Of a DNA stretch of 64,000 bases, positions 9,503 to 63,875 are shown in pieces; position 1 is the first letter of the stretch, and each line of letters begins with the position of its first letter. Under the pieces are notes generated by a model, which saw only the letters and a list, made by a program, of their open reading frames with translations, made no database searches and was not told the DNA's origin. Origin of the DNA: Anaerovoracaceae bacterium (GTDB lineage Bacteria > Bacillota > Clostridia > Christensenellales > Aristaeellaceae); assembly GCA_963590165.1 (NCBI GenBank), contig CAVANO010000011.1, forward strand, positions 12,988 through 76,987. Reading direction: 5' to 3'. Made by a program: the position numbers and the translations under genes.

Positions 9503-9595
9503 GACCTCTTCGGACATGCAGGATTGGAAGAAATTTGGCGTTTTGCATCCGATTGTGTTATGATGACATAATAACAGAAAGGAAGTGCACCCCTG

Positions 9596-21124: not shown

Positions 21125-21800
21125 TCAGAAACGGACTTCGTCTGATTTTTTGATTCCTTCGGTATCATGCTTGGTTTCATTTTCATGGTTAGACATTAGC
21201 AAATTGACAGGGGGCGATAGAACAGGCAAAGCCTGCGGTCGCGGACTTCGTCCGTTTTCTTCGACCCTTTCGGTATCATGCTTGGTTTCATTTTCATGGT
21301 TAGACATTAGCAAAATGACAGGGGGCGATAGAACAGGCAAAGCCTGCGGTCGCGGACTTCGCCCGTTTTCTTCGACCCCTTCGGTATCATGCTTGGTTTC
21401 ATTTTCATGGTTAGACATTAGCAAATTGACAGGGGGCGATAGAACAGGCAAAGCCTGCGGTCGCGGACTTCGTCCGTTTTCTTCGACCCCTTCGGTATCA
21501 TACTTGGTTTCATTTTCATGGTTAGACATTAGCAAATTGACAGGGGCTTTCCGGTCGCCCCCTTGACCCCTTCGGTATCATGCTTGGTTTCATTTTCATG
21601 GATGATTTTGTTTACGTTTTTCGGGGCTTTGCAATCGCCCCCGAACTCCTTCGCACAACTTGGTTTGTATTGCGGATTTTATTATAAAGCAAGCATGGAA
21701 AAAGTGTGCAGCCGAAGGGGTCAGGGGGCGATCGGAAAGCCCCCTGGGAAAGCCTCATAACAAAACTACTATGGAAATGAAAATTGCATGCCAAAGGCAG
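21125..21800. repeat. Tandem array B: 111-bp unit x about 4.5 plus extra GC-hairpin modules
   Basis: CTTCGGTATCATGCTTGG recurs at about 21157, 21268, 21379, 21490 and 21570. Units carry CAGGCaaaGCCTG and CGGACttcGTCCGtttt. The distal part has GGGGCtttccggtcGCCCCC, GGGGCtttgcaatcGCCCCC and GGGGGCgatcggaaaGCCCCC. Confidence 0.9.
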
Positions 21801-29046: not shown

Positions 29047-29052
29047 TTTTAG

Positions 29053-29212
29053 GGCAATACCGCACAATTCGGCGGCACCGCTGAACATGCTTTTTGCGCC
29101 ATCTGCGGCTTGCAAAAATCTCGATTTACATCCAGTAAACCTTCGATTTTTGCAATTGCATCTGACACAAAATTCATTGTTCATCGTACCACCTCATTTG
29201 TGCGGTATTGCC
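29053..29212. mobile_element. MITE-like element, copy 1 (160 bp, 15-nt terminal inverted repeats)
   Basis: GGCAATACCGCACAA ... TTGTGCGGTATTGCC. The internal arms match the inverted copy at 44896-45036. The central 11-bp hairpin TTGCAAAAATC/GATTTTTGCAA is unique to this copy. Lies between convergent genes. Confidence 0.7.
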
Positions 29213-29240
29213 TTAGGCAAATAAAAGGAAGGACAGCCGA

Positions 29241-30425
29241 TTATGGTTGTCCTTCTCTTTTTCGGTCAACGCTGATGACCGTCACGGCGGTGCTGATGGT
29301 TCGTCCGGTCGAGGGAAACTGCAGGTAAAACAGCCGTTTCAGGCGTTCCATGACGATGTTGCCTGCTTCGACATCCGCATTCGGCAGCAGCACGGCAATG
29401 GTGCTGTCGTTTGTGCGCGTGATGACGTCGCTCCGGCGCAGGTTCAGCAGCATGATTTTCACAAGCCCGTTCATCGAGGCATCATGGCGGACACTGCCGC
29501 GCTCAAGCTCCGTGAGCGTCAGCAGACCGAGCACTGCCTGACCGCCGCTGCGCTCCATGGAATGGCGCTGCATGCGGAAAAGCGCCTTGAACACGCGGCT
29601 GTCGCAGAGAATCGCGCGGCCGTTGTCCTCCTCGCTGAGCAGCTCCTCACGCAGGGCGGACACATCGTTCTCGACCGCCCGAACCGCCTGCTGCACGCGG
29701 ATCCGGTAGTCGCGCATCTGCTCCTCCATTGCAAATTCGCTGATGCGCGAGGTCAGTTCTGCCTGCTGCGCGGCATCAGCCGTGCGTTCGGTGCTGTTGA
29801 GCCCTTCAATTAACCGCTGCTGCAGCGCCTCATTCGTCGGGTCGGCATCAATCGCCTGACGCACCAGCGCGACATAGCGGTGCGCGTGACCCGTTTGCTT
29901 CAGAAACTGAAGCCGCGCGTCAATTGCCTGCAGGAACATCTGATGCAGCCGCTCGGCCTTGCCGTTCGTCCATGTCAGCCGGCGGTCTTCCTCCAGCAGC
30001 CGCCCCTGATAGAGCGACAGAATCTGTGTGATGACCTCGTCAGGCGGTGCAGGTGCATCGCTCTGCTGATATGGTGCAAGCAGCTGCTCGAACAGCAGCA
30101 CATCCACCGTCACGCTCGGCTCGCTGACCCAGCGGTAACCGCCGCGGATGGTTGTCAGGCAGTCCGACAGTTCCATTGAAATCGTTCGCAGAAGCGTCCG
30201 TTGCCGGCTGACGAGCGTCTTGAGCGCGGATTCGGGTCTTGCGGAGGCCTCCTCCGGCCAAAGCACGCGCATCAGCGTTTTGGCATCCGCCGTCTGATTC
30301 GGCGCGAGAATCAGGTATTCCATTAGCAGAATGCCCTTGGGGGAATGGGAAAGCTGCTCATCGACGGACACGCCGTCCTTTTCTACATGAAAGCTGCCAA
30401 AGAGATTGATTTTTACATGGCTCAT
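29241..30425 (-). CDS. SARP/BTAD-type transcriptional regulator fused to a degenerate GGDEF-like domain
   Basis: N-terminus INLFGSFHVEKDG...LLMEYLILAPNQTADAKTLMRVLWPEE...ALKTLVSRQRTLL...GGYRWV (winged helix), followed by a BTAD-like helical region. The C-terminus matches a GGDEF-domain layout, but the signature is replaced by RTNDSTIAVLLP. Confidence 0.65.
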   Translation of the reverse strand: MSHVKINLFGSFHVEKDGVSVDEQLSHSPKGILLMEYLILAPNQTADAKTLMRVLWPEEASARPESALKTLVSRQRTLLRTISMELSDCLTTIRGGYRWVSEPSVTVDVLLFEQLLAPYQQSDAPAPPDEVITQILSLYQGRLLEEDRRLTWTNGKAERLHQMFLQAIDARLQFLKQTGHAHRYVALVRQAIDADPTNEALQQRLIEGLNSTERTADAAQQAELTSRISEFAMEEQMRDYRIRVQQAVRAVENDVSALREELLSEEDNGRAILCDSRVFKALFRMQRHSMERSGGQAVLGLLTLTELERGSVRHDASMNGLVKIMLLNLRRSDVITRTNDSTIAVLLPNADVEAGNIVMERLKRLFYLQFPSTGRTISTAVTVISVDRKREGQP

Positions 30426-30491
30426 GGGCGTATCTCCTTTTCAACAGTTACATCATAACAAAAATGATGCAAAAGTGCAAGACCCGAAGAG

Positions 30492-31031
30492 TTCTCACTT
30501 CCATCGTCGAGCTTTAGCAAACGAACAAGGGGGCTTTCCGGTCGCCCCCTTAAACCCCTTCGGTTTTGGCGGATTATAATAGAACGCATGCCAGAAGGGT
30601 TCTCACTTCCATCGTCGAGTTTTAGCAAACGAAGAAGGGGGCTTTCCGGTCGCCCCCTTAAACCCCTTCGGTTTTGGCGGATTATAGTAGAACGCATGCC
30701 AGAAGGGTTCTCACTTCCATCGTCGAGTTTTAGCAAACGAAGAAGGGGGCTTTCCGGTCGCCCCCTTAAACCCCTTCGGTTTTGGCGGATTATAGTAGAA
30801 CGCATGCCAGAAGGGTTCTCACTTCCATCGTCGAGTTTTAGCAAACGAAGAAGGGGGCTTTCCGGTCGCCCCCTTAAACCCCTTCGGTTTTGGCGGATTA
30901 TAGTAGAACGCATGCCAGAAGGGTTCTCACTTCCATCGTCGAGTTTTAGCAAACGAAGAAGGGGGCTTTCCGGTCGCCCCCTTAAACCCCTTCGGTTTTG
31001 GCGGATTATATGATGGAACGCATGCCCGAAG
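30492..31031. repeat. Tandem array C: 108-bp unit x 5 (copies 2-5 essentially identical)
   Basis: TTCTCACTTCC recurs at 30492, 30600, 30708, 30816 and 30924. Each unit reads TCACTTCCATCGTCGAGTTTTAGCAAACGA + GGGGGCtttccggtcGCCCCC + ttaaaCCCCTTCGGttttgg + a TATA-rich box. Confidence 0.92.
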
Positions 31032-31062
31032 GGGTTCGGGGGCGAGATGAAAGCATCCGATT

Positions 31063-31104
31063 ACAAAGAAAACCGGCAGGAACCGCCATGCAGCTCCTAC
31101 CGGT
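31063..31104 (-). terminator. Rho-independent terminator of rny
   Basis: Minus strand: ACCGGTAGGA ... TCCTGCCGGT (one G-U pair) followed by TTTCTTTG, 11 nt after the rny stop. Confidence 0.6.
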
Positions 31105-31115
31105 TTTATTCTGAT

Positions 31116-32729
31116 TTACTTGGCGTACTCCATCGACCGCGTTTCGCGGATGACGTTTACGCGGATCTGACCCGGATATTCCATTTCCTTCTCGATGCGC
31201 TTGGCGATTTCCTTGGCGAGAATCTTCGTGCCGTCGTCGGTCACGTCGTCGGGCTTCACCATGATGCGCACCTCGCGGCCGGACTGGATGGCGTAACACT
31301 TCTCGACGCCCGGGAAGGACATTGCGATTTCCTCCAGCTTCTCCAGACGCTTGATGTAGTTCTCCAGGCTCTCGCGGCGCGCGCCGGGACGGGCAGCGGA
31401 GATGGCGTCTGCCGCCTGCACGAGCACTGCCTCGACCGTCTGCGGTTCCACATCGTTGTGATGCGCCAGAATCGCGTGGATGACATCGGGGCTCTCGTGA
31501 TACTTGCGTGCCAGTTCGCCGCCGAGGGTGACGTGTGTACCTTCTGCCTCGTGGTCAACCGCCTTGCCGATGTCGTGCAGCAGACCTGCGCGCTTGGCAA
31601 GCTGAACGTCAGCGCCGAGCTCTGCTGCCATCAGGCCGGCGAGATGGCTGACTTCGATGGAGTGCTGGAGCACATTCTGACCGTAGGAGGTGCGATACTT
31701 CAGGCGACCGAGCAGCTTGACGAGCTCGTGGTGGATGCCGTGCTGATTCGTCTCGAACACGGCAGCCTCGCCTGCCTCGCGAATCTGGTTTTCGACTTCC
31801 TTTTTTGCCTTGTCCACCATTTCCTCGATGCGGGCGGGATGGATGCGGCCATCGTTAATCAGACGCTCCACCGCGATGCGCGCGATTTCACGGCGAACCG
31901 GGTCGAATGCGGACACGATGACGGCTTCAGGCGTATCGTCAATGATGATGTCAACGCCGGTCGCAGTCTCAAGGGCGCGGATGTTGCGGCCTTCGCGGCC
32001 GATGATGCGTCCCTTCATGTCGTCATTAGGCAGCGCGATGACGGATACCGTGCTCTCGGCGACGTGGTCGGATGCGCACTTCTGGATGGCAAGCGCGATG
32101 ATGTTGCGCGCCTTCTTCTCGGCCTCTTCCTTCGCACGGGCTTCGATATCGCGCACGGAGGCGGCGGCATCGTGGAAGGCTTCCTTCTGTACGCGGTCAA
32201 TGATGATTTGCTTGGCCTCGTCCTGCGTCATGGCGGCGATGCGTTCAAGCTCGGCTGTCTGCTTGTTGAAGAGCTGTTCCGCCTCGTCATGCAGGCGGTT
32301 CGTGTCCTCCTGACGAAGTTCGATTTGCTCGGTGCGCTTCTTCAGGTCGTTCTCGCGGTCATCCAGGCTGTCGGAGCGCTTGTCCAGCGACGATTCACGC
32401 TGAAGCAGGCGGTTCTCCGTCCGCTGCACCTCTGCGCGGCGTTCGCGGACTTCATTCATCTCACGGGTACTTTCGGCGCGTTCGCGGTCAATCTCGTTCT
32501 TGGACTTGAGAATCTCCGCCTTGGCTTCCTGCACTTTTTCCTTCTTGTAGTCGTCAGCCTTGCGCTTGTAGTCATCCGCCTTGCGGACGGCATCTTCGTA
32601 AAGCTGTGCGGCTGTCTTTTCGCTGCGATTAATTTTTTCCTCGATGAGGTTCTTCCGGTAGGTATAGCCTGCGAAGCCGCCTCCTGCCGCAGCAACGAGC
32701 AGAAGAAGAATCCACACAATGGTCGGCAC
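31116..32729 (-). CDS. rny: Ribonuclease Y
   Basis: ORF 31116..32831. GTG at 32729 lies 8 nt after AAGGGGGA and gives the usual N-terminal TM ([17 protein letters not shown]); alternative ATG 32765 has no RBS. Coiled coil, KH domain ([13 protein letters not shown]), HD domain ([10 protein letters not shown]...LLHDIGKA). Confidence 0.92.
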
Positions 32730-32799
32730 GATTGAAATCCCCCTTTCAAAGTGTTTTTCGTTCATATGTTCAGATTTTGCATCCATGCCCGGCTGACGC

Positions 32800-32833
32800 A
32801 AAAAAGCCGTACGGGACATGAAATCCCACACGG
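32800..32833 (-). terminator. Intrinsic terminator/attenuator at the 3' end of the rny leader
   Basis: Minus strand: CCGTGTGGGA-tttcatg-TCCCGTACGG (10 bp, two G-U pairs), a single C, then TTTTTT. Ends 35-70 nt before the rny start. Confidence 0.5.
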
Positions 32834-40258: not shown

Positions 40259-43200
40259 TTACTTCAATTCTCCGCTTGCTTTCATGGCTTCGTACTGCTC
40301 CAGCGAAATCAGGCAGCGGCGGGGCTTTGCGCCGTCCTTAGCAGAGATGATGCCGCGCTGCTCCATTTCATCGACAAGGCGTCCTGCGCGCGCATAGCCG
40401 AGCTTCAGCCGGCGCTGAATCAGGCTGGTCGAGACCTCGCGGTCGCGCACTGCCATTTCCACGCACTGCGAGAACAGGTCACGGTCGGACGCGGCGTATT
40501 CATCCACGGTCGAATTGGCATCGGGGTCGTCTTCGTCGCCGTCGTTGCCGGCGTTCTCAAGGCGAGCCATTTCATCCAGCACGGAATTGTCGTAGTTGGC
40601 AGGCGAATACTGGCGGATAAAGTCGGTAATGCCGTTGACCTCATCGTCTGTCAGGAAGCAACCCTGCACACGAATCGGCGTAAACTCGCCCATCGGCATG
40701 TACAGCATATCGCCGTAGCCCAGCAGCTGTTCGGCACCGTTGCGGTCGAGAATCGTGCGGCTGTCGACGTTCGAGGACACCTTAAACGCGATTCGGCTGG
40801 GGATATTCGCCTTAATCAGACCGGTAATGACATCCACGGACGGACGTTGCGTTGCGACGACCAGATGAATGCCGGCAGCACGGGCGAGCTGCGCCAGACG
40901 GCAGATGCGCTCTTCGACTTCCTTCTTGCACGTCATCATCAGGTCAGCCAGCTCGTCAATCACGATGACGATGCGCGGCAGCGGCTCTTCGTCCTCATCA
41001 AGGGACTCGTTGTAGCCGTCAATGGCGCGGACGCCCTTTTCCTGGAACAGCGTGTAGCGGTTCATCATCTCGCCGACTGCCCAGCCCAGCGCGCCGCTTG
41101 CCTTATGCGGGTCGGACACGACAGGAATCAGCAGGTGCGGAATGCCGTTGTAGCACTGCAATTCAACGACCTTCGGGTCAACGAGAATCATGCGGACTTC
41201 CTTGGGCGAGCAGCGGTACAGCAGCGAATTGATAATCGTGTTGATACACACGGATTTACCAGAACCGGTTGCACCGGCAATCAGCAGATGCGGCATTTTC
41301 GCAAGGTCGCAGAGAATCGGCACGCCGGCAATGTCCTTGCCGAGTGCGACGCTCAGCCGTCCCTTTGCCTTGCGCATCACGTCGGACTGCAGGACTTCCT
41401 TGAGCGTGACGGTCGTGCGTGCGCTGTTCGGCACCTCAACGCCGACAAGTGCCTTGCCGGGAATGGGCGCTTCGATGCGGACGGACTTGACCGCCATATT
41501 CATGGCGATGTTGTGGTTGAGGTTCGTGACCTTCGAGACCTTGATGCCCGGCGCGATTTCCAGCTCAAAGCGCGAAATCGCCGGTCCGTGCGTGATGTGG
41601 CGCACTTTCGCCGGAATGCGGAAGGACTTAAGCGTCTCTTCCAGCCGCTGGGTGCGCATGATATCCTCCTCCTCACTGATGCCCTGCTGAGGCGGCGGGT
41701 CGCGCAGGAGGATGACCGGCGGATACGTGTAGGGGATTTCAGGGTTGTAGGTGGACATGGCGGATGCGCCTGTTGCACTCGGTCCGCCGGACGGCGCTTC
41801 GGCGGTCGGTTTGGCGACCATGATGCCCTGCTTGGCGGAAGGCGGCGTGAAATCAGGCTTCTGCAGCGTTTCAGGGACGCTCCGCATGCCGGTGGACTTC
41901 TCCTGCGGTAGCTTCAATTCAGGCTGCCACGCGCCCTCGGGACGCGGTTGCGTCAGTACGGGCGACACAGCCTCCTTCGGCGCCTCCTCCGACTCCTCCC
42001 ACGGCGGACGGTCATCGAGCGACTCCGGAAATTCCGGCTCATCCTCAAGATCCTCCTCTGAAGGCTGTGCAACAGGCTTCGCCTGATTTGGCTCTGCCTG
42101 ATTTGGCATTGCCTGGTCTGGCATTGCCTGCACAGGCGATGTCTGTTGTGCCGTTTGCACAGGCGAAGCCTGTTGCGTCGTTTGCACAGGCGAAGCCTGC
42201 TGCATCGGTACGTCATTCCAGGTATACTGCGCCGGCGCACCGAGACCGGTATCTGCATTGCTCTTCGGCAGCTCATATGGGTCGATATTCGGCGGCTCAA
42301 CGGTCTCCGCATCGGTAAACGCCGGATTTTGCGCTGTATTGCCCTGCGGTTCCACTGCCTGCACAGCGCCCGTGCTGCTCCATGCAGAACGGCGGCGCGG
42401 CGTTGTCCAGCCTTCCGCAACGCTCGTCTGACCAAGTTCCTCCGCTGTCGGCGCGAAGCCGATATGGGTGTTCTTCCGGCTCTGAACGGAGGTAATCGGC
42501 TGCCCCTGCATTTCCGGCTTCGTGGGCTGATTCACCTGCTGCGGCCGCTGGTACGGGCTCTGTGCACCCTGCTGAGCCGTTGTCCCGGTTACCGGGTTCC
42601 CGGTTATCGGCTGCCCGGTTACCGGATTCCCGGCGACCGGGTTCCCGGTTATCGGATTCCCGGCGACCGGGTTCCCGGTTATCGGGTTCCCGGCGACCGG
42701 TTGCCTCGTTGTGCCGGGACGGGCATAAGGAGACGGACCACCCTGCGTATATCCGCCGCCATAGGGCTGCTGCGCCTGCGCTGCAATCTGCTGCTGACGC
42801 GCTGCTTCCTGACGGCGCGCCTCCTCCTCGGCGGCACGTTCAGCGCGCTCCTCCTGCCGCTCGCGTGCCAGTTCCAAGCGCTCGCTCAATGCTTCCTTCA
42901 GCCGTTTGACGAGCGGCCAGCAGCCAATCAGCACATCCACCGCAATCAGCAGACCCAGCACAACCGTGCCGAGCGTTCCGCCGAGGTACTTCCACAGCGG
43001 CCACGCCAGCAGCATGCCGACCATGCCGCCGCCCTGTCCCTTCATGCCATAGGTCATGCTCCGCGACATCATGCCGCCGAAGCTGTCAGAACCGTCAAGT
43101 GCCTTGATATAATCCGGCAGACAGAGCTGCCCTTCATTCGTGCTGACGAACGTCACCAGCGTCAGGAAACCGCACAGCAGCACGACAAGAATCGCATAGC

Positions 43201-48484: not shown

Positions 48485-50056
48485 TTACTCGCCTGCCATG
48501 ATGGCATTCACCGCGTCGACAACCGCCTGAGAGGTGATCGTTGCGCTGGTCACCGCATCAATGCCGTCGCCCAGCGTGAACGGTGCCTTCTTGCCGATGA
48601 ACTGCGCCGTGAATTCGTCTTCCGCGCACTTCTGACCCAGACCGGCGGTCTGCGTAGAAGCATCCACGCGCAGCGTCTTGATGACGCCGTCTTCATCCGT
48701 CACATACACGATGACATCGCCGTCGCCGAAGCCCTTGACCGTCACGGTCTTTTCGTCAGCAGGAACTTCCGGTTCGGCTGCGTACAGGCTGTTCACTGCA
48801 TCGACAACCGCCTGAGAGGTGATTGTTGCGCTTGCCACCGCATCAATGCCGTCGCCCAGCGTGAACGGTGCCTTCTTGCCGATGAACTGCGCCGTGAATT
48901 CGTCCTCTGCGCACTTCTGACCCAGACCGGCGGTCTGCGTAGAAGCGTCCACGCGCAGCGTCTTGATGACGCCGTCTTCGTCCGTCACATACACGATGAC
49001 ATCGCCATCGCCGAAGCCCTTGACCGTTACGGTCTTTTCGTCAGCAGGAGCTTCGCTCGCTTCCGGCTCGTTCACTTCCGACTCGCTCGCTTCCGTTTCG
49101 GCTGCTGCTTCCGGCTCAGCCGTTGCTTCCGGCTCAGCTGCAGCCAGCTCGTCTTCCGTCATTGCGGGAGCTTCCAGCGCTGCATTGATGGCTTCGACCG
49201 CCGCCGTCGAGGAGATCGTCGCGCCGGTCAGCGCATCCACGCCGTCACCCAGCGTGAACGGACCGCTCTTGCCGATGAACTGCGCCGTGAACTCTTCGCC
49301 TGCGCAGCGCGTGCCGAGACCTTCGGTCTGCGTGCTCGCATCGATGGTCAGCGCGGAAATCGTGCCGTCATCGTTGAGCGTCAGGCGCGCAACCACTTCA
49401 CCGCCGCCAAAGCCCGATGCCGTGCCCTGATGCACATCACCCGTCAGCACAACAGGCTCGGCAGCCGCCGTCTCCTGCTTCGCGCCGAAGGACAGCGGGT
49501 CGCCCTCGACATCCTTGCCGAGGACATGGCTGATGCACTTGAGCACGTTGTTGGAGGCAGTCAGCACCGCATTCGAGGTGAGCGTCGCGCCGGAAATCGC
49601 CTCGATGGTATCGCCGCCGTACGCGCTCACGCCCTTGAACTGCACCGCGCGTTCAGCCTCCTGCCAGCGTGCACCGAAACCGGCCGTTTCGGAGAAATTC
49701 GTATCGCCGATCTGGGCGCCGGTCACCTTGCCGTCCATGTCAACGCCGAGCGTGACCGCGACATCGCCGCCGTAGCCCTTCGCGGACGACACGGCACAGT
49801 AGCCGATGGTCTGACCGCCTTTCTTTGCCTCGACGAGCTTCGACACGTCGTAGCCCTCGGGAATGTCCATCGTGCTGAAGGTGTCAGCCTCCATGACGGA
49901 CTGGAAAGCGGCGTTCTGCGCGGCTTCCTCATGTTCCTTGATTGGTCCCTCGGTGATTGCATTTGTCACAGCCAGCGCCAGTGCAGCCACCAGTGCGATA
50001 ATCGCCAGAATGACATACGCCGGAAGCTGCTTTTTCGTTGCCTTGTTCTCGCTCAT
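48485..50056 (-). CDS. Membrane-anchored protein with four FMN-binding (FMN_bind) domains
   Basis: GGAGGAGG RBS. N-terminal TM. Four domains with flavinylation-type motifs SGATLTS, TGATISS and SATITS (x2). Domains 3 and 4 are a near-identical tandem duplication. Confidence 0.85.
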   Translation of the reverse strand: MSENKATKKQLPAYVILAIIALVAALALAVTNAITEGPIKEHEEAAQNAAFQSVMEADTFSTMDIPEGYDVSKLVEAKKGGQTIGYCAVSSAKGYGGDVAVTLGVDMDGKVTGAQIGDTNFSETAGFGARWQEAERAVQFKGVSAYGGDTIEAISGATLTSNAVLTASNNVLKCISHVLGKDVEGDPLSFGAKQETAAAEPVVLTGDVHQGTASGFGGGEVVARLTLNDDGTISALTIDASTQTEGLGTRCAGEEFTAQFIGKSGPFTLGDGVDALTGATISSTAAVEAINAALEAPAMTEDELAAAEPEATAEPEAAAETEASESEVNEPEASEAPADEKTVTVKGFGDGDVIVYVTDEDGVIKTLRVDASTQTAGLGQKCAEDEFTAQFIGKKAPFTLGDGIDAVASATITSQAVVDAVNSLYAAEPEVPADEKTVTVKGFGDGDVIVYVTDEDGVIKTLRVDASTQTAGLGQKCAEDEFTAQFIGKKAPFTLGDGIDAVTSATITSQAVVDAVNAIMAGE

Positions 50057-63512: not shown

Positions 63513-63875
63513 GGCTTCGCGGACTTCGCAGACTTCGCGGACTTCGTCCGTTTTTTCAGACTTCGCAGACTTCGTCTGTCTTTTTCAGGCTTTGCCTGAT
63601 TTTGACCCCTTCGGGTAAGTACCCTGCGAAGGGGTTCGGGGACGACCGCAAAGCCCCCGAAACAGAATATAGCGATCTCCAATACCCAATAGAGTAGCAA
63701 TAAAAAAAGCCTTCGGGTAAGCGCACTGCGAAGGGGTTCGGGGGCGAGCGCAAAGCCCCCGAAACAGAATATAGTTATCCCCAATACCCAATAGAGTAGC
63801 AATAAAAACCCCTTCGGGTAAGTACCCTGCGAAGGGTTTCGGGGGCGAGCGCAAAGCCCCCGAAATAGACATTCC
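63513..63875. repeat. Array F: GACTTCG mini-hairpin cluster followed by a 101/102-bp unit x about 2.6
   Basis: CGGACttcGTCCGtttttt and CAGACttcGTCTGtcttttt, then CCTTCGGGTAAG at 63608, 63710 and 63811. Each unit has CCCCTTCGGGTAagTACCCtgcGAAGGGG and TTCGGGGGCgagcgcaaaGCCCCCGAA. Confidence 0.9.

What the first reader, a model, noticed from the sequence alone, without database searches (positions are those of the whole stretch)
30492..31031. Five nearly identical 108-bp units, each with a TATAAT box next to two hairpins
Unit starts are exactly 108 bp apart, and copies 2-5 look identical by eye, implying very recent amplification or ongoing homogenisation. On the minus strand every unit reads ...TA(C/T)TATAATCCGCCAAAACCGAAGGGGTTTAAGGGGGCGACCGGAAAGCCCCCTTCTTCGTTTGC.... 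That is a -10-like hexamer, about 12 nt, hairpin AAACC/GGTTT, hairpin GGGGGC/GCCCCC, then a T-rich tract. The hexamer is kept even in the divergent first and last copies (TATTATAAT, CATATAAT). I found no convincing -35 box. One reading is an array of tiny (about 50-60 nt) RNA genes; another is a purely structural repeat. The array lies between the rny terminator and the start of the SARP/GGDEF-like regulator.
Basis: partly seen in the sequence, partly recalled or inferred. Interest (0 to 1): 0.6.

Follow-up and report, generated by a model that had tools for sequence, protein, structure and literature searches.

The report
Tandem copies of a dispersed hairpin repeat
The five 108-bp units are real, but they are a recent, lineage-specific tandem amplification of one copy of a small hairpin repeat that litters the gaps between genes in this group of gut Clostridia, and the evidence points against an array of small RNA genes, though expression could not be tested.

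Summary
Window 30486-31033 carries 5.1 head-to-tail units of 108 bp; units 2-4 are identical and the edge units diverge.

The reading as tiny RNA genes is not supported:
- Only about 42 nt of each unit recurs elsewhere. This core, (C/G)CGAAGGGGT, a 9-10-bp GC stem and the loop GAYCGSAAA, has at least 137 copies at 57 almost purely intergenic loci in this 2.4-Mb genome, in both orientations relative to the flanking genes. About 25 other arrays (periods 62-146 bp) contain it or a close variant.
- The TATAAT spacer and the small AAACC/GGTTT hairpin occur only in this array. No -35 or TG extension precedes the hexamer.
- Two sister species keep the rny-regulator synteny and the regulator's own promoter, but lack the unit.
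- The internal unit junction is a hybrid of the two array edges. This points to duplication between two 12-13-nt direct repeats, followed by unequal exchange.

The family resembles REP/BIME elements, but no RAYT gene is present and there is no GTAG anchor. The core also shows one loop-to-5'-flank base pair that covaries, as in a pseudoknot.

The scan had already met this family at another array of this genome (e1-3848781) and has reported REP-like families in other Clostridia.

The parts
30486..31033 (-). Tandem array of 5.1 units of 108 bp. Read on the minus strand, the sense strand of rny and the regulator, each unit is: TATAAT spacer, core hairpin element, then the tail ...GATGGAAGTGAGAA.
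30523..30568 (-). Core element of unit 1: CCGAAGGGGTTT-AAGGGGGC-GACCGGAAA-GCCCCCTT.
   Evidence: Covariance model R1, 56.2 bits.
30631..30676 (-). Core element of unit 2.
   Evidence: R1, 52.1 bits.
30739..30784 (-). Core element of unit 3.
   Evidence: R1, 52.1 bits.
30847..30892 (-). Core element of unit 4.
   Evidence: R1, 52.1 bits.
30955..31000 (-). Core element of unit 5.
   Evidence: R1, 52.1 bits.
31020..31064 (+). Degenerate core in the opposite orientation, with its 3' stem arm lost, lying between the array and the rny terminator. It is probably an older resident copy. A weak match sits in the corresponding orientation about 100 bp past the rny stop in 'Faecalibacterium sp. CAG:74'.
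   Evidence: Inverted repeats I1-I5. R1, 14.9 bits at L081 3277-3321. L001 5750-5791, 18.6 bits.
31025..31037 (-). Direct repeat at the rny-side edge of the array: GAACCCCTTCGGG. It is part of the degenerate inverted core.
30483..30494 (-). Direct repeat at the promoter-side edge: GAACTCTTCGGG. The internal junctions GAGAACCCTTCTGG are hybrids of the two edges.
   Evidence: Alignment A3. The homologous GGAACTTCCGGG is present in sister species G013.
30452..30480 (-). The regulator's own promoter, TTGCAC-17 nt-TATGAT with TGT just upstream of the -10 hexamer. It lies immediately downstream of the array and is conserved in the sister species (TTGCGT/TTGCTC-17-TATAAT).
   Evidence: Read from the sequences. 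It is an inferred promoter, and the consensus scan did not call it.
31069..31107 (-). Intrinsic terminator of rny: 18 pairs followed by UUUUCUUUG.
31116..32831 (-). rny (RNase Y), upstream neighbour of the array.
   Evidence: Pfam RNase_Y_N, KH_1 and HD.
29241..30425 (-). Regulator with BTAD and Trans_reg_C domains (SARP-like), downstream neighbour of the array.

Best explanation
The array is a young tandem amplification, specific to this lineage, of a 108-bp piece of intergenic DNA. That piece holds one copy of a dispersed, non-coding hairpin repeat. The repeat family works like REP/BIME elements and is spread through this family of uncultured gut Clostridia.

Shown:
- Only the roughly 42-nt core of the unit is repeated elsewhere in the genome.
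- The rest of the unit, including TATAAT, is unique to this locus.
- Sister species keep rny, its terminator, the regulator and the regulator's promoter, but have other repeat modules in the gap.
- The internal unit junction is a hybrid of the two array edges.

Inferred:
- The first duplication arose by slippage or illegitimate recombination between two 12-13-nt imperfect direct repeats, GAACCCCTTCGGG and GAACTCTTCGGG. Both are copies of the family's own CCCTTCGG motif and lie 108 bp apart.
- Later expansion and homogenisation came from unequal exchange or replication slippage between whole units. That leaves identical interior units and diverged edge units.
- The array most likely has no dedicated function. 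If it has an effect, it would be as five stable hairpins in any rny read-through transcript, or as structured DNA between the rny terminator and the regulator's promoter.
- The TATAAT hexamer is a chance feature of the amplified spacer.
For: 1. Family. Genome-wide TRF finds about 25 further intergenic arrays of period 62-146 bp that contain the same hairpin core or a close variant. Model R1 finds at least 137 cores in the genome. nhmmer finds 112 cores at 57 loci. Nearly all are intergenic, and the few 'inside' cases sit at the ends of crudely called ORFs. In co-directional gene contexts about 7 loci have the gene orientation, 11 the opposite and 3 are mixed.

2. Uniqueness of the unit. BLAST of the unit against the genome matches only unit positions about 26-67 elsewhere. 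The non-core 85 nt is found in 0 of 39 other species of the genus and 0 JGI metagenome contigs.

3. Orthologous locus. In G054 and G013 the regulator is 92% identical and the rny tail 94-95% identical. The gap there is 203 and 185 bp, against 582 bp here. R1 finds no core in it, and the promoter is conserved. Six assemblies of a sister species (regulator 92% identical) show a constant 305 bp between the called rny stop and the regulator start.

4. Origin. Alignment A3 shows the internal junction matching the promoter-side edge on its left and the rny-side edge on its right, with the switch inside the shared AAC(C/T)C(C)TTC(G/T)GG.

5. No promoter and no RNA family. The promoter scan gives 0 sites. 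Rfam gives nothing at the gathering threshold; the best sub-threshold hits are PhotoRC-I at 18.5 of 45 bits and Clostridiales-2 at 15 of 58.6 bits. The whole-unit fold is not unusual (z = -0.55 and -1.16).

6. Other species of the genus carry their own core-containing arrays: G006 with 119 bp x 4.5 and 75 bp x 2.6, and G019 with alternating orientation at periods 245 and 280.
Against:
- A perfect TATAAT lies 12 nt upstream of a small hairpin, and about 26 nt upstream of a GC hairpin followed by a U-rich stretch. That is the layout a very small RNA gene would have.
- No other strain of this species was available, so neither copy-number polymorphism nor the assembled copy number could be verified.
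- 'No function' is an inference from lack of conservation. REP/BIME elements, the closest analogues, do affect mRNA stability and bind gyrase and IHF (textbook knowledge), so an acquired local effect is possible.
Confidence: 0.75

Rival explanations
1. Array of small RNA genes. Each unit would carry its own -10 promoter (TATAAT) and produce an RNA of about 50-60 nt that ends at the GC hairpin and the U-rich tract.
For: - A perfect TATAAT is present in all five units, including the diverged edge units.
- Downstream lie two foldable hairpins and UUCUUCGUUUG.
- Arrays of sRNA genes do exist in other bacteria (general knowledge).
Against: - There is no -35 or TG extension, and the promoter scan finds 0 sites.
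- The TATAAT spacer and the AAACC/GGTTT hairpin are unique to this array.
- The unit is absent from sister species that keep the synteny.
- TATAAT occurs 1.09 times per kb in intergenic DNA, so one unit in about 30 arrays holding it is expected by chance.
- Family cores lie in both orientations relative to genes.
- No Rfam family matches.
Confidence: 0.07
2. Functional cis-acting array. The repeated hairpins would act as a transcriptional insulator or back-up terminator between rny and the regulator, as a stabiliser of the rny mRNA 3' end, or as repeated binding sites for a DNA- or RNA-binding protein (gyrase or IHF as at BIMEs, or the adjacent SARP-like regulator). Copy number would then tune the regulator's expression.
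For: - The array lies exactly between the rny terminator and the -35 box of the regulator's promoter, and its cores are in the sense orientation.
- In all three species this gap is filled by some hairpin-repeat module.
- The core's stem covaries and its loop sequence is conserved, which suggests that something recognises it.
Against: - The modules in the gap differ between sister species, so no particular sequence is conserved there.
- The sequence 3' of the hairpin is not U-rich across the family, and the scan calls no terminator in the units.
- Orientation relative to genes is mixed across the genome.
- No binding protein is known.
Confidence: 0.12
3. Assembly artefact. The locus would really hold one or two units, or many more, and the assembler produced five from a looped graph.
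For: - Units 2-4 are identical over 324 bp, longer than typical short reads.
- The genome is a draft of 52 contigs, and several contigs end in such repeats.
Against: - The edge units carry distinct variants that anchor at least three different unit types: unit 1, the interior units and unit 5.
- The hybrid junction is present, so at least two units must exist.
- Similar arrays occur in independent assemblies of other species.
Confidence: 0.05

Closest known systems
REP / BIME elements of Escherichia coli and other Enterobacteria (PU sequences; BIME-2 tandem clusters)
   Same: - Short GC-rich imperfect palindromes in hundreds of copies, almost only between genes.
- Found singly, as inverted pairs and as tandem clusters that differ between close relatives.
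- Two stem variants alternate in orientation in one relative (G019), much as the Y and Z2 units do in BIMEs (from my knowledge).
   Different: - No GTAG tetranucleotide at the 5' side.
- No RAYT gene in this genome or in the other repeat-rich genomes of the genus.
- The loop is long (9 nt), conserved in sequence, and covaries with the 5' flank.
- The host is a Clostridia lineage.
- The arrays in this genome are direct repeats of core plus a unique spacer.
REPIN-RAYT systems of Pseudomonas (PMC3116915, PMC3337134)
   Same: - A population of hairpin repeats confined to extragenic space.
- Inverted doublets are common: several '-+' loci appear.
- Copy number differs greatly between related species.
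   Different: - By definition REPINs are mobilised by a single-copy RAYT gene flanked by REPs. PF01797 is not found here. Within the genus it occurs only in genomes with 21 or fewer cores, where both were counted.
- The four genes flanked by cores on both sides encode a mannosyltransferase-like protein, an SH3/peptidoglycan-binding protein, a GH94 enzyme and an unknown protein.
MIRU (mycobacterial interspersed repetitive units) / VNTR loci
   Same: A dispersed family of intergenic tandem arrays with units of about 50-100 bp, whose copy number is specific to a locus and a lineage.
   Different: - MIRUs are reported to lie within operons in the gene orientation and to carry small ORFs that overlap the neighbouring genes' stop and start codons (from my knowledge).
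- Here orientation is mixed, the periods are mostly not multiples of 3, and the conserved part is a covarying hairpin.
BOX elements of Streptococcus pneumoniae and STAR repeats of Staphylococcus aureus
   Same: Modular intergenic repeats of Gram-positive bacteria in which one module is tandemly reiterated. The elements are modular, and other small hairpins are found inserted inside them.
   Different: No sequence similarity and no boxA-boxB-boxC order. This was compared from memory only, not by a tool.

Membership tests
REP/REPIN (RAYT-mobilised) | Short imperfect palindrome, high copy number, restricted to extragenic DNA | tested here: met
   At least 137 cores. There are 57 loci, nearly all intergenic. 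The 10-bp stem has six covarying pairs.
REP/REPIN (RAYT-mobilised) | A RAYT (Y1 transposase, PF01797) gene in the same genome, usually flanked by REPs | tested here: not met
   PF01797 gives 0 matches in this 97.7%-complete genome, while the control genomes do match. It is also absent from the repeat-rich genomes G019, G021, G006, G014 and G013, and present only in genomes with 21 or fewer cores where both were counted.
REP/REPIN (RAYT-mobilised) | Conserved GTAG (or similar) tetranucleotide at the 5' foot of the hairpin | tested here: not met
   The conserved 5' flank is (C/G)CGAAGG(G/A)GT. No GTAG appears in alignments A1, A2 or A4.
BIME-type cluster | Tandem clusters in which two palindrome variants alternate in orientation | tested here: inconclusive
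   This array is five cores in direct orientation. Alternating arrays are seen in G019, for example L102 14186-14989 reading +-+-+-+.
Small RNA gene (promoter, transcript, terminator) | A recognisable promoter | tested here: not met
   0 sigma-70-like sites on either strand. The hexamers 16-18 nt upstream of TATAAT are ACCCTT, CCCTTC and AACCCT, and there is no TG extension.
Small RNA gene (promoter, transcript, terminator) | Transcript detected with a primary 5' end | not testable with these tools
Small RNA gene (promoter, transcript, terminator) | Conservation of the gene in related genomes | tested here: not met
   The unit's non-core part is found in 0 of 39 species of the genus and is absent at the syntenic locus of G054 and G013.
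Rfam families (PhotoRC-I, Clostridiales-2 and all others) | Score at or above the family's gathering threshold | tested here: not met
   0 hits at the gathering threshold in the window and none for these elements in 140 kb of core-rich G019 DNA. The best sub-threshold scores are 18.5 of 45 bits and 15 of 58.6 bits.
Protein-coding repeat | An open frame with homologues or a domain match, and periods that are multiples of 3 across the family | tested here: not met
   The two ORFs through the array (176 and 141 aa) have no Pfam match below E = 0.006. The family's other periods (94, 95, 101, 104, 113 and others) are not multiples of 3.
MIRU-like VNTR | Units oriented with the operon and carrying small ORFs that overlap the neighbouring genes' stop and start codons | tested here: not met
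   Orientation is mixed relative to co-directional neighbours. The array is separated from both genes by a terminator and a promoter.

The most novel reading that the evidence does not exclude
The roughly 42-nt core may be more than a palindrome. It could be a folded element, as RNA or as single-stranded DNA, with a pseudoknot. A 3-4-nt stretch just 5' of GAAGG, (T)SCG, pairs with CGS'(A) in the hairpin loop, and the middle pair switches between C:G and G:C.

The counts for that pair are:
- 63 C:G, 14 G:C, 1 U:G and 2 non-pairs in this genus.
- 26 C:G, 26 G:C and 3 non-pairs in four other genera.
- Both states occur with at least four different stem types.

If this is real, the family would be a REP-like system without a RAYT. 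Its copies would be recognised, and perhaps mobilised or bound, by a partner that is still unknown, in a large uncultured gut lineage. The tandem arrays, this one included, would be by-products of that system.
Probability: 0.2. Interest if true: 0.6.

Novelty: new variant of a known kind. Interest (0 to 1): 0.3.

Why it matters
For this locus the result is mostly a correction. A striking, almost perfect array with a textbook -10 box is a by-product of repeat turnover and should not be annotated as small RNA genes.

The wider family is of moderate interest:
- It behaves like REP/BIME elements and fills intergenic gaps of many uncultured gut Clostridia. It is patchy across the family (12 of 72 genera sampled) and ranges from 0 to more than 150 copies within one genus.
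- It lacks the transposase that defines REP systems, and it carries a covarying loop-to-flank pair. It could therefore lead to a new mobilising or binding factor.
- On the practical side, such arrays break short-read assemblies and could serve as strain markers of the VNTR type.

Tried and rejected
- Other strains:
  - An exact-protein look-up of the regulator found nothing.
  - The unit's 25-mer gave 0 hits in JGI metagenome contigs.
  - A regulator-based metagenome scan found no relative.
  - The nearest protein cluster is only 92% identical, that is, a sister species.
- Rfam: nothing at the gathering threshold. The PhotoRC-I and Clostridiales-2 similarities are generic GC-hairpin resemblances far below threshold.
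- Coding repeat: rejected.
- RAYT partner: absent.
- Partner gene flanked by cores: the four genes flanked on both sides show nothing nuclease-like or transposase-like; three look like housekeeping or cell-envelope genes and one has no Pfam match.
- Conserved 'hairpin 1' (AAACC/GGTTT): of 86 distinct cores, only 3 form 5 contiguous pairs around GAAGG and 45 form 2 or fewer. It is therefore specific to this array.
- Strand asymmetry of G.T versus A.C mismatches in the stems, which could separate an RNA role from a DNA role: by eye there are too few mismatches, and both kinds occur. No conclusion.
- Literature: four full-text searches found no description of this family in Clostridia.
- A fuzzy-regex genome scan timed out and was replaced by a plain regex, nhmmer and the covariance model.

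Full report
**1. Observation**

Tandem Repeats Finder reports an array at 30486-31033 with period 108, 5.1 copies, 98% matches and no indels. The repeat finder gives spacings of 108, 108 and 108.

Printed in register, units 2-4 are identical. Unit 1, next to the regulator, has four substitutions. Unit 5, next to rny, diverges over its last 15 nt or so.

The neighbours are RNase Y (31116-32831, minus) and a regulator with BTAD and Trans_reg_C domains (29241-30425, minus). rny has a strong terminator at 31107-31069. Pfam gave no GGDEF match. The one caveat is that three identical 108-bp units cannot be counted reliably from short reads.

**2. The unit is one member of a genome-wide family**

The window alone holds four more arrays of about 100 bp: 17533 (135 bp), 21132 (111 bp), 52389 (94 bp) and 63605 (102 bp). 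Across the 2.43-Mb, 52-contig genome, TRF lists about 25 further intergenic arrays with periods of 62-146 bp that share one core or a close variant of it. The core is (C/G)CGAAGG(G/A)GT, a short linker, a 9-10-bp GC-rich stem, the loop GAYCGSAAA, and the returning stem.

A covariance model of the core (R1) finds at least 137 copies in the genome; only 150 of about 1,385 candidates were scored. nhmmer finds 112 copies at 57 loci: 30 single, 13 double and 14 larger. With a crude ORF map, nearly all loci are intergenic, and the few 'inside' cases sit at ORF ends.

Orientation relative to co-directional neighbours is mixed: about 7 loci with the genes, 11 against and 3 mixed. This argues against a function that depends on being transcribed in one sense.

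**3. What is specific to this array**

BLAST of the unit against the genome matches only unit positions about 26-67, which is the core. The TATAAT spacer and the 40-nt tail have no other copy. The 85-nt non-core part is found in 0 of 39 other species of the genus. Its 25-mer is found in 0 JGI metagenome contigs.

The small AAACC/GGTTT hairpin is not a family feature. Of 86 distinct cores, 3 can form five contiguous pairs around GAAGG and 45 form two or fewer.

TATAAT occurs 1.09 times per kb in this genome's intergenic DNA, counting both strands. Outside this array, six of the other 56 core loci hold one copy each, or 0.42 per kb. One unit in about 30 arrays carrying the hexamer is what chance predicts.

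No sigma-70-like promoter is called on either strand. The hexamers 16-18 nt upstream are ACCCTT, CCCTTC and AACCCT, and there is no TG extension.

The whole unit does not fold better than shuffled sequence (z = -0.55 and -1.16). Only the core region does (DNA fold, z about -2).

Rfam gives nothing at the gathering threshold. The sub-threshold similarities are PhotoRC-I at 18.5 of 45 bits and Clostridiales-2 at 15 of 58.6 bits, and they are generic. The ORFs through the array have no domain support.

**4. Comparative evidence at the locus**

RNase Y is 90% identical to that of 'Faecalibacterium sp. CAG:74'. More distant hits are labelled Candidatus Limiplasma, Christensenellales or Clostridia MAGs from animal and human guts. 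The gene downstream of rny differs in that record, and only a weak inverted core lies about 100 bp past the rny stop.

Two species of the same genus, G054 and G013, have a regulator 92% identical to this one and keep the rny-regulator synteny. Their gap is 203 and 185 bp, against 582 bp here, and R1 finds no core in it. G054 has instead 6.5 copies of a 19-nt CGGACGAAGTCCG hairpin unit. G013 has a single, different composite element.

All three species share the sequence just upstream of the regulator: TTGCAC/TTGCGT/TTGCTC, 17 nt, TATGAT/TATAAT, an RBS and ATG. I read this as the regulator's real promoter, at window 30480-30452. The array therefore lies between a terminator and a promoter, in a gap that each lineage fills with different repeat modules.

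Six assemblies of a sister species (regulator 92% identical) show a constant 305 bp between the called rny stop and the regulator start. No other strain of the present species was found.

Over 34 kb of synteny with G054, almost every intergenic gap differs through such modules. Small hairpins are also found inserted inside cores.

**5. How the array arose**

On the minus strand:
- the rny-side edge reads ...CCCCCGAACCCCTTCGGGCATGCGTTC...
- the promoter-side edge reads ...GAAGTGAGAACTCTTCGGGTCTTGCAC...
- every internal junction reads ...GAAGTGAGAACCCTTCTGGCATGCGTTC...

Alignment A3 shows that the junction equals the promoter-side edge on its left and the rny-side edge on its right, and switches inside the shared AAC(C/T)C(C)TTC(G/T)GG.

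This is the signature of a duplication between two short imperfect direct repeats 108 bp apart. One is part of an older, inverted, degenerate core next to the rny terminator (31020-31064). The other is ancestral flank, also present in G013. Both are instances of the family's own CCCTTCGG motif.

Identical interior units with diverged edge units then fit unequal exchange or slippage between whole units. The duplication step is inferred from sequence, and the later steps follow from general knowledge of tandem-repeat dynamics.

**6. The family**

The core occurs in 22 of 24 sampled species of the genus, with 0 to more than 150 copies. It occurs in 12 of 72 sampled genera of the family. It was found in none of 16 other families of the order, each sampled with one genome. 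Other species have their own core-containing arrays. In G019, two stem variants alternate in orientation with periods of 245 and 280 bp, much as in BIMEs.

The stem covaries strongly. In alignment A2, six of ten pairs change on both sides, and 0 of 500 shuffles reach the observed score. The same holds in four other genera.

PF01797 (Y1 transposase, RAYT) is absent from this genome and from all repeat-rich genomes of the genus. It occurs only in genomes with 21 or fewer cores, where both were counted. There is no GTAG anchor. The family therefore works like REP/BIME elements but fails two defining features of REP-RAYT systems. The genes flanked by cores on both sides include nothing that looks like a mobilising enzyme.

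**7. An unexpected feature of the core**

The base before CGAAGG and the base after CG in the loop are complementary. GCG goes with CGC and CCG with CGG. The counts are 63 C:G, 14 G:C, 1 U:G and 2 non-pairs in the genus, and 26 C:G, 26 G:C and 3 non-pairs in other genera. Both states occur with each of at least four stem types.

Together with the two invariant neighbouring pairs, this gives a 3-4-bp loop-to-flank helix, which has pseudoknot topology. Only two states are seen, so two old lineages that exchange stems cannot be fully excluded. The pairing works on either strand, and mismatch types do not single out a strand. I report this as a lead.

**8. Verdict**

The array is real and young. 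It is best explained as a lineage-specific amplification of a REP/BIME-like repeat copy together with its local spacer (confidence 0.75).

The rivals are:
- sRNA genes: 0.07
- an acquired cis-acting role: 0.12
- an assembly artefact: 0.05

The scan had already reached a similar conclusion for the 94-bp array of this genome (e1-3848781). My tests agree with it independently, and they add the absence of RAYT across the genus, the junction analysis and the covarying loop pair.

Interest in this locus is low to moderate.

Noticed in passing
All cores, e.g. window 30523-30568(-), 21707-21750(+), 63722-63766(+); alignments A2 and A4: A loop-to-5'-flank base pair covaries between two states (GCG...CGC and CCG...CGG). 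Counts are 63 C:G, 14 G:C and 1 U:G with 2 non-pairs in the genus, and 26 and 26 with 3 non-pairs in four other genera. The topology is that of a pseudoknot, with an AAA stretch following the loop strand.
   Followed up: partly
Window 21151-21790; G054 syntenic gaps (L097-L099): Second hairpin modules, CGGACTTCGTCCG (a C(UUCG)G-type loop on one strand) and CAGGCTTTGCCTG, are found inserted inside cores or replacing a stem arm. The intergenic repeats are therefore nested and modular. R1 hits of about 57-63 nt and about 97-106 nt against a 46-position model reflect such insertions.
   Followed up: partly
Window 29047-29219: An element of about 160 bp with 15-nt terminal inverted repeats (GGCAATACCGCACAA...TTGTGCGGTATTGCC) is a clean insertion relative to G054. 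It is flanked by TTA on both sides, which is a possible TA or TTA target-site duplication and makes it look like a MITE.
   Followed up: partly
Window 9503-11710: About 2.2 kb is present here, but only about 100 bp at the syntenic site of G054. This is an insertion or deletion of gene-sized DNA. I did not examine it.
   Followed up: no
Window 30452-30480(-): Conserved promoter-like sequence of the BTAD regulator (TTGCAC-17-TATGAT with TGT upstream), shared with G054 and G013. The consensus scan misses it because its -35 box matches only 3 of 6 positions.
   Followed up: partly
L082 1316-1440 (G054, same rny-regulator gap): The sister species has 6.5 tandem 19-nt units, AAAACCGGACGAAGTCCGC, where this genome has the 108-bp array. 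The gap is a hot spot for different repeat modules.
   Followed up: partly
Genome contigs C15 56-297, C20 1783-2069, C25 1844-2134, C48 1333-1526: Several contigs begin within 0.1-2 kb of such arrays, and in relatives many cores lie at contig ends (e.g. G070, G006). This suggests that the repeats fragment short-read assemblies.
   Followed up: no
Window 42583-42700 and 48507-49054: Other tandem repeats unrelated to the core: a 15/30-bp TCCCGGTTACCGGGT array and a 285-bp x 1.9 repeat that looks as if it lies inside a gene.
   Followed up: no
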